The translations under genes and the position numbers were made by a program. The notes under the pieces were generated by a model, which had not been told where the DNA came from, made no database searches, and worked only from the letters and a program-made list of their open reading frames with translations. Shown piece after piece: positions 11,366-15,942 of a stretch of 64,000 bases of DNA; the first letter of the stretch is position 1, and each line of letters starts with the position of its first letter. Source of the stretch: a virus. The stretch lies in IMG/VR virus record IMGVR_UViG_3300010367_000378, positions 21,636 to 85,635 of that record; one strand, 5' to 3'.

Positions 11366-11569
11366 ATGGAGAGACATCCAGATCCTGAAGTGCAGGCGGC
11401 CATCACCCGTCTGCTCGATGCGCTCTGTACCTGGGAACGCAGCACCGGTCGTGGGTCCGTACTGATCCTCCGGGAAGCGGGAGGCTTCGAGGTCCGCGCC
11501 CAGGACGGCAAGCCGCTCTCGATCGACGTGCCGGACGACGTGCTGCTGGGGAGCGTGGGCCATGGGTGA
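11366..11569 (+). CDS. Hypothetical protein
   Basis: RBS GGAGGAGGA before ATG 11366. Confidence 0.65.
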   Translation: MERHPDPEVQAAITRLLDALCTWERSTGRGSVLILREAGGFEVRAQDGKPLSIDVPDDVLLGSVGHG

Positions 11570-12650
11570 GAAATCGGGGATCGGTTGGACCGACGCAACG
11601 TTCAACCCCTGGTGGGGATGCTGGCCGGTGAGCCCCGGCTGCGCCCTCTGCTACGCCGCCCGGGAGGCCGAGCGCTACGGCTGGACCGAGGGAGGCGGAT
11701 CAGGGCCGGACCTCTGGCAGAAGCAGGGACCCCGCCGGGTCTTCGGCGAGGCACATTGGAGCGGGAAGAACAGCCCGCGCCGGTGGGCGACGACGTTGCC
11801 GGCCGAACTCGGCCGCCGGCCCCGCGTCTTCACTGCCAGCATGGCAGACATCGGGGAGGATCACCCGATCGCCGAGCAGGAGCGGCCGAAGCTCTGGGCG
11901 CTGATCGAAGACACCCCCCAGCTCGACTGGCTGCTCCTGACGAAACGGGTTGAGACCGCTCGCCAGTGGCTCCCGGCCCGCTGGCTGGAGCCCGGCGGGT
12001 GGCCGGCGCATGCCTGGTTCCTCTTCAGCGCCGAGGATCAGCAGCGCTTCGACGAGCGCCTCCCCTATATCCTGGACATCCCCGCCCCGGTTCTGGGGTG
12101 CTCCTACGAGCCCTCCCTGGGAGGGATCGACTTTCGGGCCGGCCTGTCGATCGCCTGGCAGTGCTCTTTCTGCCGGCGCTACTTCCCGGGCCCCTACCAG
12201 AAGACCTGTCCCGCCTGCTCGCGCGAGTACGGCTGGAGCGGGTCCCACCGCTTCAACCCGCCCCGCGGCCAGCGCGGCCCGGGGTTGAACTGGATCATCG
12301 CCGGCGGGGAGAGCAGCCGGCCCCGCGATCGCGCTCGAGCGCCGCATCCCTCCTGGTTTAGATCGGCCCGCGACCAGGCGGTGGCGGCCGGCGTCGCATT
12401 CTTCTTCAAGCAATGGGGGGAGTTTGCCCCGCTGAACGAAGGGGCGACGGGGAGCTTCGGCGACGTATGGGTCTGCGACAACGGCAACGGCCAAGCGGTC
12501 CACCGGCAGAAGTGGGAGCCGGGAAGCCAGGGCGCGGAGCCCGGCAGGTGGGGCGCCGGCGACGTGTTGATGCGGCCGGTGGGGAAGCAGGCCGCCGGCG
12601 AGCACCTGGATGGCAAGCTCTGGCACCAGTTCCCGGGCGGTGCGCCGTGA
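11562..12650 (+). CDS. Phage Gp37/Gp68 (DUF5131) family protein with inserted Cys-rich ribbon
   Basis: IGWTDATFNPWWGCWPVSPGCALCYA, VFTASMAD, WLLLTKR, WIIAGGES, FFFKQWG; insert CSFC..CPAC. Confidence 0.92.
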   Translation: MGEKSGIGWTDATFNPWWGCWPVSPGCALCYAAREAERYGWTEGGGSGPDLWQKQGPRRVFGEAHWSGKNSPRRWATTLPAELGRRPRVFTASMADIGEDHPIAEQERPKLWALIEDTPQLDWLLLTKRVETARQWLPARWLEPGGWPAHAWFLFSAEDQQRFDERLPYILDIPAPVLGCSYEPSLGGIDFRAGLSIAWQCSFCRRYFPGPYQKTCPACSREYGWSGSHRFNPPRGQRGPGLNWIIAGGESSRPRDRARAPHPSWFRSARDQAVAAGVAFFFKQWGEFAPLNEGATGSFGDVWVCDNGNGQAVHRQKWEPGSQGAEPGRWGAGDVLMRPVGKQAAGEHLDGKLWHQFPGGAP

Positions 12651-13428: not shown

Positions 13429-13745
13429 AGGACGTCGACGAAGTGGAGGTCGAGATCTGCCGCGCCGAGCTGGAGGAGGCCTCAGCCGCCTTCACCGCCG
13501 CGCAGCGACGTTTCACAGCAGCCCGGACCGCGCTCGCCGATGCGGCCTCGCCCTGGGCCCCGGGGGACTATGTGCGCCACCCCGAAGGCACCAGCTACCG
13601 CGTCGACGACGTGATCTTCGCCCCCGGTGACGAGCTCTACATGCTCCGTGTGGAGGATGAGACCGGCAGCGTCTTCACCCTGAAGAGCTCCACGGTCCTG
13701 GTGCCGGCGAACCCCTGGCCAGCGCCGGCGGAGGCCAGTCGATGA
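13425..13745 (+). CDS. Hypothetical protein
   Basis: RBS GAGGAGA before ATG 13425. Confidence 0.65.
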   Translation: MKDVDEVEVEICRAELEEASAAFTAAQRRFTAARTALADAASPWAPGDYVRHPEGTSYRVDDVIFAPGDELYMLRVEDETGSVFTLKSSTVLVPANPWPAPAEASR

Positions 13746-14230
13746 AGGCGGTGGCGATTCGTTCCGGGGTAGAAGATCCGGATGTCGACACCTCCAGCGA
13801 TCTCAAGATAGAGCCCGGTCCCGATCTCTTCCCCATCCGATCGGCAACCATCTCGTCGAACCGAGGCGGCTGGGTCCTGGGGCACGCCGAGATCTATTTC
13901 GAGCGGGTCGAGGTCCGGGCCCGGTGCCATTTCAACTCCGAGCTCCCGGCTCTCGACGAGCTCGTCGCGCGTGGCGGCCGCTCGGTCAAGAAGACCGGAG
14001 GCGGGGTCTTCGTCGCTCTCGTAAAAATCCTCCCCGGCTTCGTCTCGGTATCGATCGATGACCAGGAGCTGCCGATCATCTCGGTCACGGTCGAGATCAA
14101 ACCGGACGCGCCTGTCGAGGCGAACGTCGTCTTCCCAGATGCCCGCGAGCCTGGCGCATGGACTCCCAGCCTCTGCCGCCGCCTGCTCGAAGCCTGCGGG
14201 TGGGAGTTCTCCCCGGTGGGGGCTGTATGA
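13742..14230 (+). CDS. Hypothetical protein
   Basis: ATGA-coupled ORF. Confidence 0.6.
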   Translation: MKAVAIRSGVEDPDVDTSSDLKIEPGPDLFPIRSATISSNRGGWVLGHAEIYFERVEVRARCHFNSELPALDELVARGGRSVKKTGGGVFVALVKILPGFVSVSIDDQELPIISVTVEIKPDAPVEANVVFPDAREPGAWTPSLCRRLLEACGWEFSPVGAV

Positions 14231-15459
14231 ACTGGTCCGCCCTCTTCAGCAACCAGTTCTTCTCCGGCGGCATCGCCCTGGGCGCGATCGCCGCGCTCGT
14301 AGCGTTCGGCCGCCGCTACGTGGTGCTGCTCGCCGACGTCGTGCGCCGGCGCTTCGTGTCCGAGATCGAGGTCCGCGACGGCGACATGGTGGTGTGGCTC
14401 GGGCTCTGGCTCGCCCACACCCCCTATGGCATCGCCTGCAAGCGGCTCTCGACATATGTCCTCCACCAGGAGGGCGAGGGCGTGCCGCTCCTCTACTTCG
14501 AGCCGGGGATCGGCCCCCACGTCTTCCGGCACGAGGGGACCTTGCTGGTGATCGATCGCCGGCGAGATGAGCCCTCACCTGGTGCGTCGGTCTATCCGCG
14601 CGAGTGGTATGTCTTCCGGGCTTTCGCCCCCCGCGAGCGGGCCGCCGAGCTCCTGGACCAGGCGAAGGTCTTCTCCCGCGAGTTGCTCTCCCGGCGCCAC
14701 ACCGCCTTCCTCTCCGATGGCCGAGGCGGATGGGATCGGATCGGCGTCGGCGTTCCCCGCGAACTCTCCTCGGTAGTGCTCCCGGGCGAGACCATTGGGG
14801 AAATCGTGAAGCGCGTCCGTCTCTTCCAGGATCGGCGCGCCTGGTACGCCGAGCGCGGCATCCCCTGGCGGCTCGGGTTCGGCTTCTTCGGCCCGCCGCG
14901 CACCGGCAAGACCTCCCTCGTCCGCGCGATCGCCCACGACCTGAGCCTGCCGCTCTACGTCCTCGACCTCACCAGCAAGGAGTTCAGCGACAAGGACCTG
15001 ATCCTCACCCTTTCCAGGGTGCCGATCGGAGCCGTGCTCCTGATCGAGGACATCGACGAGCAGCTCGGCTCGAAGTCCTCCTTCGTCACCCTTTCGGGGA
15101 TGCTCAACGCGCTCGACGGACCGCTCGCCTCCGAGGGCCGGATCTTGTTCGTCACCTCGAACACCCCCGAGCGCTTGGATGCCGCGCTCCTGGGCGAGGG
15201 CCGGCTCGACGTCCACATCCACTTCGGGCTCGCCACCCGCGAGCAGGCCGGGCAGATGTTCCTCCGCTTCTTCCCCGGCCTCGAGAAGGAGGTTCAGGCC
15301 TTCGCCGCCGCCCTGCCGGAGGGAGTGATCCCTCCCGCAGCGATCCAGGAGCACCTGGCGGTCCGCTCGGACGATCCCGTCCGGGCGATCGCGGAGGCCT
15401 CGGCTCTCGCCGGCCGGACGTTCAAGGCGGTGGCCCGCGGGGAGGTGGCTGCTGCGTAG
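14227..15459 (+). CDS. Bcs1-like membrane-anchored AAA+ ATPase
   Basis: NQFFSGGIALG TM segment, WYAERGIPWRLGFGFFGPPRTGKT, LLIEDID, TLSGMLNALDG, TSNTPERLDAAL..GRLD. Confidence 0.85.
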   Translation: MNWSALFSNQFFSGGIALGAIAALVAFGRRYVVLLADVVRRRFVSEIEVRDGDMVVWLGLWLAHTPYGIACKRLSTYVLHQEGEGVPLLYFEPGIGPHVFRHEGTLLVIDRRRDEPSPGASVYPREWYVFRAFAPRERAAELLDQAKVFSRELLSRRHTAFLSDGRGGWDRIGVGVPRELSSVVLPGETIGEIVKRVRLFQDRRAWYAERGIPWRLGFGFFGPPRTGKTSLVRAIAHDLSLPLYVLDLTSKEFSDKDLILTLSRVPIGAVLLIEDIDEQLGSKSSFVTLSGMLNALDGPLASEGRILFVTSNTPERLDAALLGEGRLDVHIHFGLATREQAGQMFLRFFPGLEKEVQAFAAALPEGVIPPAAIQEHLAVRSDDPVRAIAEASALAGRTFKAVARGEVAAA

Positions 15460-15483: not shown

Positions 15484-15512
15484 TTGACATACTCTATACG
15501 ATCGTATAGAGT
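15484..15512 (+). promoter_or_regulatory. Sigma70-type promoter overlapped by a perfect 22-bp palindrome
   Basis: TTGACA-N17-TAGAGT; ACTCTATACGATCGTATAGAGT (15491-15512) is self-complementary. Confidence 0.8.
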
Positions 15513-15561: not shown

Positions 15562-15942
15562 ATGAACACTCCCTCGATTAGCAGCCGCATCCTCCTCGCC
15601 CTTCTCCTGCTTTTCCCCCTGGCCGCGCCCGCGGCGGCCGAGGAGGACGCCTACTTCTCGATGGCGTTCCCGGACCTGGTGACGGCGCCGGCGAACGCCC
15701 ACATCCACACCCACCTCTGCGTGACCGGGTTCGTCCAGAAGACCCGGAAGGAGAAGGACGGCGACATCCACGTCCAGCTTTGCCAGGGAAGCCTCTGCAT
15801 GGTGCTGGAGATCATGCCGGAGCTGCCGGTGGCCCGCCCCCGGAAGGGCCAGAAGATCCAGGCCTGCGGGGTTGTCCGGTATGACGGCTGGCATTCCTGG
15901 TGGGAACTCCACCCGCTGGTCCGGTGGGAGGTGGCCCGGTGA
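15562..15942 (+). CDS. Secreted small protein, probable OB-like beta fold
   Basis: Signal peptide (R-ILLALLLLFPL-AAPAAA), EKDGDIHVQL...EIMP...WELHP; 4 Cys in the mature part. Confidence 0.75.
   Translation: MNTPSISSRILLALLLLFPLAAPAAAEEDAYFSMAFPDLVTAPANAHIHTHLCVTGFVQKTRKEKDGDIHVQLCQGSLCMVLEIMPELPVARPRKGQKIQACGVVRYDGWHSWWELHPLVRWEVAR

What the first reader, a model, noticed from the sequence alone, without database searches (positions are those of the whole stretch)
14227..15459. Mitochondrial Bcs1-like AAA translocase encoded by a phage
Seen: full Bcs1 architecture, namely N-terminal NQFFSGG + TM (cf. NPYFGAG), a middle domain, WY..RGIPW..GPP.TGK, LLIEDID and TLSGMLNALDG; the first SRH Arg is lost (GEGRLD versus RPGRVD). 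Known: Bcs1 moves the folded Rieske protein across the mitochondrial inner membrane. Inference: a phage membrane translocase/extractase; its co-occurrence with six exported phage proteins raises the possibility that it moves folded virion parts across the inner membrane or remodels host respiratory complexes.
Basis: partly seen in the sequence, partly recalled or inferred. Interest (0 to 1): 0.65.

Follow-up and report, generated by a model that had tools for sequence, protein, structure and literature searches.

The report
Phage Bcs1-type membrane AAA ATPase
An uncultured soil phage carries an intact relative of the mitochondrial Bcs1 folded-protein translocase; such phage genes were described in 2021, so the gene is ordinary, but this subgroup has swapped one catalytic arginine from the neighbouring subunit to the ATP-binding loop.

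Summary
Window 14227-15459 (+) encodes a 410-aa protein with the whole Bcs1 architecture: an N-terminal membrane helix, the Bcs1-specific middle domain, one AAA cassette and the Bcs1 lid. Pfam, PDB sequence search and a pLDDT 92.5 model (Z about 32 against yeast and mouse Bcs1 over about 380-390 residues) all agree. The contig is a tailed phage.

Phage BCS1 orthologues and the idea that they move folded proteins were published in 2021 (PMC7824862). This scan has noted phage Bcs1-type genes many times on other DNA. The gene is a mobile accessory gene. The closest carriers share almost nothing else with this phage, no neighbour is conserved, and the six exported proteins have no homologues there. 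The yeast residues that contact the Rieske protein are not kept. The proposed coupling to exported virion parts or respiratory complexes is therefore unsupported.

New here: the loss of the first arginine finger (G323) is always paired with an arginine in the P-loop (R225, three residues before the lysine). This holds in 19 of 19 fetched family members that have the P-loop Arg. No sequence with the usual P-loop Gly among about 320 scored has lost that arginine. The pairing recurs in several independent lineages. This suggests a trans-to-cis relocation of a catalytic arginine. The function is untested.

The parts
14227..15459 (+). Gene for a 410-aa Bcs1-family AAA ATPase (P0001)
   Evidence: Translation. 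Pfam BCS1_N + AAA + AAA_lid_BCS1. PHROG 7485 at 2e-51 over the full length. PDB Bcs1 at E about 5e-49. AF2 model with pLDDT 92.5.
14257..14310 (+). N-terminal membrane helix (residues about 11-28), preceded by the conserved N-x-F-F-S-G-G motif and followed by RR...RRR. Predicted topology is N-terminus outside and bulk in the cytoplasm.
   Evidence: Best Kyte-Doolittle 19-mer windows 1.65-1.77 at residues 10-39. AF2 helix 10-43. It aligns with the TM region of yeast and mouse Bcs1. N9 and G14 are kept in at least 90% of 100 homologues. The topology is inferred from the positive-inside rule.
14290..14775 (+). Bcs1-specific middle domain (Pfam BCS1_N, residues 22-183)
   Evidence: PF08740 at 45.4 bits against a cut-off of 28.1. 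It is structurally aligned with the Bcs1 middle domain.
14884..15231 (+). AAA cassette (residues 220-335). Walker B LLIEDID lies at 15037-15057 and sensor-1 N312 at 15160-15162.
   Evidence: PF00004 at 2.9e-15. E274, D275, N312 and R326 are invariant in 100 homologues.
14890..14913 (+). Walker A GPPRTGKT with Arg225 (codon CGC, 14899-14901) where the family has Gly, three residues before the P-loop Lys
15193..15204 (+). SRH arginine-finger segment G-E-G-R. Gly323 (GGC) replaces the first finger (mouse R343). Arg326, the second finger, is kept.
15238..15399 (+). Bcs1-type AAA lid (residues 338-391)
   Evidence: PF25426 at 40.9 bits against a cut-off of 27.
13742..14230 (+). Upstream 162-aa orphan ORF whose TGA overlaps the ATG of the ATPase gene (ATGA). 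It is probably co-translated. Its relation to the ATPase is unknown.
   Evidence: No family. No relatives in viral contigs. No counterpart upstream of the gene in L002 or L003. The Atlas model is poor.
15484..15512 (+). Promoter-like site TTGACA-17-TAGAGT between the ATPase stop and the next gene. It marks a likely transcription-unit boundary.
   Evidence: 10 of 12 matches; it is the one site found in 6.5 kb, against 0.2 expected.

Best explanation
Identity. The gene encodes a single-pass inner-membrane-anchored AAA ATPase of the Bcs1 family. It has a short N-terminus outside the membrane, one helix, the Bcs1 middle domain, one AAA cassette and the Bcs1 lid. This part is shown.

Carrier. It sits in a roughly 90-110 kb tailed phage, in the plus-strand block of DNA-metabolism genes. 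It behaves as a mobile accessory gene and not as a virion-module gene.

Mechanism, by analogy (inferred). The protein forms a ring on the cytoplasmic face of the host inner membrane, in the same orientation as Bcs1 on the matrix face. It uses ATP to hold a folded client and push it into or across the membrane. The client is not known. It is probably not the Rieske protein, and nothing links it to the phage's Sec-leader proteins.

ATP site. One of the two trans-acting arginine fingers is replaced by Gly. An arginine sits in the P-loop three residues before the lysine. That is the position of the internal arginine finger of GBP1 and of the cis P-loop arginine of phage terminases. The enzyme is therefore probably active, with part of transition-state stabilisation moved from the neighbouring subunit to the same subunit (inferred from covariation).
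For: Architecture and fold: (Z 31.8 with 377 residues aligned to yeast Bcs1 ATPgammaS; Z 31.5 with 391 residues aligned to mouse Bcs1 ATP state).

Catalytic residues K228, E274, D275, N312 and R326 are invariant. The N-x-F-F-S-G-G motif on the outer side of the helix is kept between phage, bacterial and eukaryotic members. That argues the helix is more than an anchor.

Phage context.

Mobility:
- G001, G002 and L186 share essentially only this gene.
- BCS1_N passes the cut-off in only 4 of 401 sampled genomes of one bacterial phylum and in none of 14 control genomes.

Prior proposal of the same function for phage BCS1: PMC7824862.

Arginine swap:
- All 19 P-loop-Arg members among 375 fetched family proteins lack the first finger. 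All of about 320 P-loop-Gly members scored keep it. There are no intermediates.
- With both sites masked, 0 of 200 bootstrap trees need a single change, and an AU test rejects one origin inside the clade at p 0.0004.
- Further intact P-loop-Arg AAA proteins were picked in metagenome contigs. L187 and L190/L191 could have matched only the P-loop pattern, because their SRH does not fit the second pattern. They also lack Arg at that position: L187 has Q and L190/L191 have A. L194/L195 have E there, with an Arg one residue earlier.
- Precedents: GBP1 R48/K51 (PMC5084822) and terminase R44/K47 (PMC5727402).
Against: - No oligomer, ATPase activity, topology or cargo has been measured.
- No partner or cargo gene is conserved.
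- The charged motifs that bind Rip1 in yeast are not kept, so the analogy gives no cargo.
- The nearest solved bacterial relative, YjoB, is a soluble chaperone and not a translocase.
- Covariation does not show that R225 reaches the gamma-phosphate. No coordinates or multimer model were available.
- Part of the repeated switching inside the clade could be recombination of the AAA core. P0017 joins P0018 in core-only trees.
- One broken fungal-like copy (L188, with in-frame stops) has the P-loop Arg and still keeps the first finger.
Confidence: 0.55

Rival explanations
1. It is a membrane-tethered chaperone or extractor, not a translocase. The ring stays on the cytoplasmic face. It folds, holds or pulls out a specific host or phage membrane protein, in the manner of YjoB or FtsH-type AAA proteins, for host takeover, superinfection exclusion or counter-defence.
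For: - YjoB is the next best structural and sequence match (E 5.6e-19, Z 22.6). It is reported as a substrate-specific chaperone.
- The gene lies among early or DNA-metabolism genes, not late genes.
- The gene is patchy and mobile like other accessory or conflict genes.
- Some bacterial copies sit beside KAP NTPase or RtcB genes.
Against: - The whole Bcs1 translocase architecture is kept, including the membrane helix and its conserved outer motif. YjoB lacks these.
- PADLOC gives only weak generic AAA hits.
Confidence: 0.28
2. The first reader's coupling idea, and the related Iyer et al. idea. The ATPase exports or assembles folded virion parts (the six signal-peptide proteins, or proteins packaged into the head) at the inner membrane, or it remodels host respiratory complexes through the Rieske protein.
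For: - The phage does encode six proteins with convincing leaders; a crude scan recovers them.
- One of them lies directly downstream.
- Membrane-proximal assembly was proposed for jumbo-phage BCS1.
- Two other carriers also have several leader-bearing proteins (there was no control set).
Against: - The exported proteins have no homologues in the two closest carrier genomes or near 84 other viral Bcs1 loci.
- No neighbour is conserved.
- The downstream gene has its own promoter-like site.
- Sec leaders already give an export route.
- The gene is not in the structural module.
- The Rip1-contact motifs are not conserved.
- There is no Rieske gene in the contig.
Confidence: 0.08
3. It is a catalytically weakened or regulatory AAA protein. 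Loss of the first arginine finger cripples hydrolysis, so the protein acts as an ATP-binding scaffold or switch.
For: - G323 replaces a residue that contacts the gamma-phosphate in mouse Bcs1.
- The P0228 group shows a further 2-residue deletion in the same segment.
Against: - Every other catalytic residue is invariant.
- The substitution is strictly paired with a P-loop arginine at a position used as a cis finger elsewhere.
- The paired state persists across a clade with 48-71% identity, which fits selection on an active site.
Confidence: 0.09

Closest known systems
Mitochondrial Bcs1 / BCS1L (yeast and mouse; PDB 6sh3, 6uks, 8tp1, 9gsn, 9gs2)
   Same: - The same domain order and fold from the membrane helix to the lid (28-32% identity, Z about 32).
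- The same N-x-[FY]-F-x-G-G motif before the helix.
- The same ED-type Walker B, sensor 1 and second arginine finger.
- The same predicted orientation relative to the energised membrane.
   Different: - It is encoded by a phage and acts in a bacterium, where Tat handles the Rieske protein.
- It lies outside the starred eukaryotic clade, in a metagenome-only clade.
- The Rip1-contact motifs EWR and DDR read GWD and DKD.
- The first arginine finger is replaced by Gly, and the P-loop Gly by Arg.
- There is no mitochondrial targeting context.
Phage BCS1 orthologues described by Iyer, Anantharaman, Krishnan, Burroughs and Aravind 2021 (e.g. Caulobacter phage CcrColossus gp235; PHROG 7485)
   Same: A phage-borne, membrane-anchored Bcs1-type ATPase that is patchily distributed. 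The same proposed role in moving folded proteins at the membrane. Function untested.
   Different: - The window's phage is not a jumbo phage (87.9-kb record).
- Its protein is nearer to bacterial and eukaryotic Bcs1 (about 35%) than to the jumbo-phage forms (about 27%).
- The jumbo-phage forms keep the canonical GPPGTGK and RPGR.
Bacillus subtilis YjoB (PDB 7w42, 7w46)
   Same: A bacterial Bcs1-like AAA protein with a related N-domain and AAA cassette (E 5.6e-19; Z 22.6).
   Different: YjoB is soluble, has no membrane helix and is reported as a chaperone. Its similarity is much lower than that of true Bcs1.
Internal (cis) P-loop arginines: human GBP1 R48 and atlastin; phage large terminase P-loop arginine (D6E R44)
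   Same: An arginine three residues before the P-loop lysine, acting on the nucleotide of its own subunit.
   Different: These are different NTPase families (dynamin-like GTPases; terminase ASCE ATPases). In them the arginine is ancestral to the family. Here it appears inside an AAA family together with loss of a trans finger. A role here is inferred only.

Membership tests
Bcs1 family in the broad sense (Pfam BCS1_N + AAA + AAA_lid_BCS1) | Bcs1-specific middle domain between the anchor and the AAA cassette | tested here: met
   PF08740 at 45.4 bits against a cut-off of 28.1. The domain is structurally aligned to the yeast and mouse middle domain.
Bcs1 family in the broad sense (Pfam BCS1_N + AAA + AAA_lid_BCS1) | Single N-terminal membrane helix with the bulk on the cis (matrix or cytoplasmic) side | tested here: met
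   A hydrophobic helix is present and aligns with the Bcs1 TM. The orientation is inferred from flanking charges only.
Bcs1 family in the broad sense (Pfam BCS1_N + AAA + AAA_lid_BCS1) | One classical AAA cassette with Walker A Lys, ED Walker B and sensor-1 Asn, plus the Bcs1-type lid | tested here: met
   K228, E274/D275 and N312 are invariant. PF00004 and PF25426 are above their cut-offs.
Bcs1 family in the broad sense (Pfam BCS1_N + AAA + AAA_lid_BCS1) | Two SRH arginine fingers (mouse R343 and R346). This is a general AAA catalytic feature and is not specific to the family. | tested here: not met
   The second finger is kept (R326, invariant). The first is Gly323. The change is always paired with P-loop Arg225. 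I read this as a variant active site, not as grounds for exclusion.
Bcs1 family in the broad sense (Pfam BCS1_N + AAA + AAA_lid_BCS1) | Homo-heptameric ring | not testable with these tools
   Only monomer prediction was available.
Mitochondrial Bcs1 orthologues (Rieske translocase, narrow sense) | Conserved Rip1-contact motifs EWR (yeast 212-214) and DDR (300-302) | tested here: not met
   The window has GWD and DKD. Animal, fungal and stramenopile Bcs1 keep [ED]W[RK] and DD[RK].
Mitochondrial Bcs1 orthologues (Rieske translocase, narrow sense) | Placement inside the eukaryotic Bcs1 clade | tested here: not met
   The window clade (99*) sits in a 30-row metagenome-only clade (99*). The eukaryotic core clade (100*) lies elsewhere (quick tree, unrooted).
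Mitochondrial Bcs1 orthologues (Rieske translocase, narrow sense) | Translocates the folded Rieske Fe-S protein | not testable with these tools
   No Rieske gene in the contig. The host is unknown.
PHROG 7485 (phage proteins, function unknown) | Full-length profile match | tested here: met
   E 2e-51, residues 7-393 against profile positions 17-414 of 430.
Known anti-phage defence ATPases (PADLOC: IetA, TRIP13) | Profile match over the protein | tested here: inconclusive
   Only short P-loop-region matches, E 7e-6 or weaker. NCBIfam IteA scores 18 bits against a cut-off of 510.

The most novel reading that the evidence does not exclude
The protein is a working ATP-driven exporter of a folded protein across a bacterial inner membrane. 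That would be a phage-borne route beside Sec and Tat. Its ring runs with a rewired active site in which a cis P-loop arginine has taken over from one of the two trans arginine fingers, which changes how neighbouring subunits are coupled.
Probability: 0.2. Interest if true: 0.75.

Novelty: new variant of a known kind. Interest (0 to 1): 0.38.

Why it matters
The gene adds one more non-jumbo member to a phage family that has been described but never tested, so the gene itself changes little.

The paired arginine swap is the useful part. It is a natural experiment on how AAA rings share catalysis between subunits. It occurs in a family where concerted versus sequential hydrolysis is still debated. 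Four point mutants would test it directly.

If a phage Bcs1 were shown to move a folded client across the bacterial inner membrane, that would be a new export route. It would also bear on how mitochondria replaced Tat with Bcs1.

Tried and rejected
- Conserved-partner search. All-against-all BLAST of ORFs around 24 loci and around 84 viral loci found nothing shared, apart from synteny inside one group of syntenic, apparently related contigs.
- Upstream 162-aa ORF and downstream exported protein. No family. No relatives in viral contigs. No similarity between the upstream ORFs of the window and L003. The Atlas gave no usable hit.
- Megablast of 20 kb against GenBank phages found no match.
- PADLOC and NCBIfam gave only generic AAA hits below their cut-offs.
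- No Rieske gene in the phage contig.
- A pattern scan of viral contigs for GPPRTGKT returned 19 stretches. Only the G001 copy is Bcs1-like. The rest are other P-loop proteins or non-coding frames.
- L188 and L189 are fungal-like copies with in-frame stops. I left them out as broken genes. L188 keeps the first finger despite a P-loop Arg.
- Recombination as the cause of repeated switching. Identity in the core segment gives no clear donor. However, P0017 pairs with P0018 in core-only trees, so recombination is not excluded.
- Sign tests on independent pairs stay above 0.05: 3 of 3 pairs and 4 of 4 pairs on starred branches.
- My signal-peptide scan is a crude heuristic without a control set.
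The origin and context of most metagenomic relatives therefore could not be read.
- One paper (PMC8482623) is not held.
Full report
**Observation.** The frame at 14227-15459 (+) translates to 410 residues without a stop. A longer frame from 14158 exists. Three points favour the ATG at 14227. It overlaps the TGA of the upstream ORF as ATGA. A GGTGGGGG stretch precedes it. Homologues begin at the same position. Pfam finds BCS1_N (45.4 bits, cut-off 28.1), AAA and the Bcs1-type lid. PHROG 7485 matches end to end at 2e-51. phmmer against PDB sequences gives yeast and mouse Bcs1 at E about 5e-49 to 1e-46 over residues 5-394/396. B. subtilis YjoB follows at 5.6e-19, and ordinary AAA proteins lie below that.

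**Structure.** An AlphaFold2 model built on 100 homologues has mean pLDDT 92.5. Foldseek puts Bcs1 chains first, with TM-score 0.77 over 418 columns to 8tp1_A. VIA-align gives Z 31.8 (377 residues, rmsd 3.8 A, model residues 6-398) to yeast Bcs1 ATPgammaS. It gives Z 31.5 (391 residues, model residues 1-396) to mouse Bcs1 ATP state. The best hydrophobic window covers residues 10-39. RR and RRR follow the helix. The short N-terminus should therefore face the periplasm and the bulk the cytoplasm. This is the same orientation as Bcs1 relative to the matrix, and it is inferred from charges only.

**Carrier.** The window is part of an 87.9-kb IMG/VR virus record with a CheckV completeness estimate of 81%. 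Large terminase, portal and major head protein lie on the minus strand. The ATPase gene lies in the plus-strand block with these neighbours:
- a HerA-like ATPase;
- DUF5131;
- a PAPS-reductase-like gene;
- phrog_1735;
- an HNH endonuclease.

It is therefore not in the structural module. A promoter-like site (TTGACA-17-TAGAGT, 10 of 12 matches) lies between its stop and the next gene, which encodes a 126-aa protein with a signal peptide.

**What is already known.** Iyer et al. 2021 reported BCS1 orthologues in all three major groups of jumbo phages. They proposed that these bind and translocate folded proteins in membrane-proximal assembly (PMC7824862). No other paper in the library links BCS1 to phages. 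GenBank phages hold 157 records with a match, some annotated as BCS1, including the 104-kb Citromicrobium phage RXM. This scan has noted phage Bcs1-type genes many times on other DNA. The basic finding is therefore not new.

**Relatives and phylogeny.** The family is large: 1508 representatives at E of 1e-30 or better. About 25 proteins are 48-71% identical to the window's protein. They lie on contigs of up to 97 kb, plus one on a 2.09-Mb contig. After them identity drops to about 35-40%. A tree included named eukaryotes, bacteria and phages. In it the window clade (99*) sits inside a 30-row clade of metagenomic proteins of unknown origin (99*). The canonical eukaryotic clade (100*) groups weakly with the Rhodobacterales and Burkholderiales copies. 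The jumbo-phage forms are more distant (quick tree, unrooted). BCS1_N passes its cut-off in only 4 of 401 sampled genomes of one bacterial phylum and in none of 14 control genomes. Bacterial neighbourhoods are heterogeneous: a TPR protein in Planctomycetes, and RtcB, NUDIX or KAP NTPase genes in Rhodobacterales.

**Test of the coupling idea.** I fetched the whole records of the two nearest viral carriers, G001 (61%) and G002 (51%, complete with terminal repeats). They share with the window's phage only this gene, DUF5131 (G002), a weak HerA-like match (G001) and a 56-residue partial match in G002. A further metagenomic carrier, L186, shares only this gene. The six leader-bearing proteins have no homologues in G001 or G002. 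Near 84 other viral Bcs1 loci there is only one weak partial match, to the tail fibre. No neighbour family recurs around 24 or 84 loci, except inside one group of syntenic, apparently related contigs. The gene moves on its own. A crude leader scan recovers the six proteins here and finds several unrelated ones in G001 and G002. Without a control set that says little. The yeast motifs that contact Rip1 (EWR 212-214 and DDR 300-302; PMC12219900) are kept in animal, fungal and stramenopile Bcs1. They read GWD and DKD in the window and vary across non-eukaryotic members. The contig has no Rieske gene. Coupling to the exported virion proteins or to respiratory complexes is therefore unsupported.

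**The arginine swap.** In mouse Bcs1 both R343 and R346 reach the gamma-phosphate of the neighbouring subunit (PMC7994207). Here the first is Gly323 and the second is Arg326.

Pattern inside the family:
- Thirteen of the 20 aligned clade members share the Gly. The same 13 have Arg in place of Gly in the Walker A motif (GPPRTGK).
- Among 375 family proteins fetched, 19 have the P-loop Arg and all 19 lack the first finger.
- Sixteen of these are clade members with G[EAD]GR. Three form a separate group (P0228, P0262, P0263) with Glu and a two-residue deletion.
- The sisters of that group (P0264, P0169) are canonical.
- All of about 320 scored proteins with the P-loop Gly keep the first finger. 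No intermediate state was seen.

Number of events:
- Each change is a single nucleotide (CGC and GGC).
- With both sites masked, a careful tree needs 3-5 changes inside the clade.
- None of 200 bootstrap trees needs only one change.
- An AU test rejects one origin at p 0.0004.

Outside the Bcs1-like family, a metagenome scan used a Walker A pattern and an SRH pattern. Its P-loop-Arg hits outside the window clade could have matched only the Walker A pattern, because their SRH does not fit the second pattern. They are therefore unbiased for the finger. It returned three further intact lineages that lack Arg at the finger position:
- L187 has Q.
- The second AAA domain of L190/L191 has A.
- L194/L195 have E, with an Arg one residue earlier.

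FtsH-like controls in the same scan are canonical.

Caveats:
- Formal independent-pair counts on starred branches are 3 of 3 and 4 of 4. That is too few for a sign test.
- Some switching inside the clade may be recombination of the AAA core.
- A broken fungal-like copy keeps the finger despite a P-loop Arg.

The position three residues before the P-loop lysine is where GBP1 carries its internal arginine finger (R48/K51; PMC5084822). Phage terminases carry their cis P-loop arginine at the same position (R44/K47; PMC5727402). From my own knowledge, it corresponds to Ras G13, next to where the GAP arginine enters. My reading is that one catalytic arginine has moved from trans to cis. This is inference from covariation and analogy. 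No coordinates were available to measure distances.

**Mechanism and verdict.** Shown: the protein's identity, fold, intact catalytic core, phage carrier, mobility, and the lack of any conserved partner or Rieske-type contact surface. Inferred: a ring on the cytoplasmic face of the inner membrane that grips a folded client and pushes it into or through the membrane, with a partly cis-acting active site.

The main rival is a tethered chaperone or extractor that does not translocate. The gene is a new member of a known phage family, and its active site makes it a new variant. I put overall interest at about 0.38, carried mostly by the arginine swap.

The origin of the nearest metagenomic relatives therefore stays unknown.

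Noticed in passing
window 15484-15512 and 15562-15942: A strong sigma-70-like site (TTGACA-17-TAGAGT) in a 68% G+C genome sits just upstream of a 126-aa orphan protein with a clear signal peptide and 4 Cys. No relatives were found in viral contigs.
   Followed up: partly
L190:3-737 and L191:1223-3304: A two-domain AAA protein from soil metagenomes. Its second, FtsH/CDC48-like cassette has GPPRTGKT and AGGR in place of RPGR. This is the same arginine swap outside the Bcs1 family.
   Followed up: partly
L187:7362-8696: An intact 445-aa Bcs1-like protein on a 23-kb metagenome contig with GPPRTGKT and QPGR. This is another independent loss of the first finger.
   Followed up: partly
L086:11433-13349 and L088:2508-4412: In two Planctomycetota genomes the Bcs1-like gene is followed directly by a conserved protein of about 635 aa with C-terminal TPR repeats. 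It is a possible lineage-specific partner.
   Followed up: no
L085:8221-9336, L085:11352-12464, L090:11673-13601: Rhodobacterales Bcs1-like genes lie beside RtcB, a NUDIX/cytidylyltransferase fusion, or a KAP-family NTPase. These neighbours are of the kind seen in defence or stress islands.
   Followed up: no
P0121 (825 aa) and P0128 (1051 aa): Long relatives with three or four matched stretches. They may be fused or tandem Bcs1-like forms.
   Followed up: no
L006 (IMGVR_UViG_3300031949_000741): The Bcs1-like protein of this 61-kb viral contig groups loosely with divergent eukaryotic sequences and not with phage ones. It sits on a long branch, so the placement is unsure.
   Followed up: no
L188 and L189: Fungal-like Bcs1 paralogue copies with several in-frame stops and a P-loop Arg. 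They are probably decayed or intron-bearing genes.
   Followed up: no
window 11562-12650 and G002:C1:23548-24480: DUF5131 (Gp37/Gp68-type, phrog_2045) is the only other well-conserved gene shared between the window's phage and G002 (53% identity).
   Followed up: no
L154 (Caulobacter phage CcrColossus, 5573-9074 of the locus): Downstream of the CcrColossus BCS1-domain gene the record annotates a UPF0114 membrane protein, a putative lipoprotein and a CsgG-like curli assembly protein. This is an envelope-related cluster.
   Followed up: no
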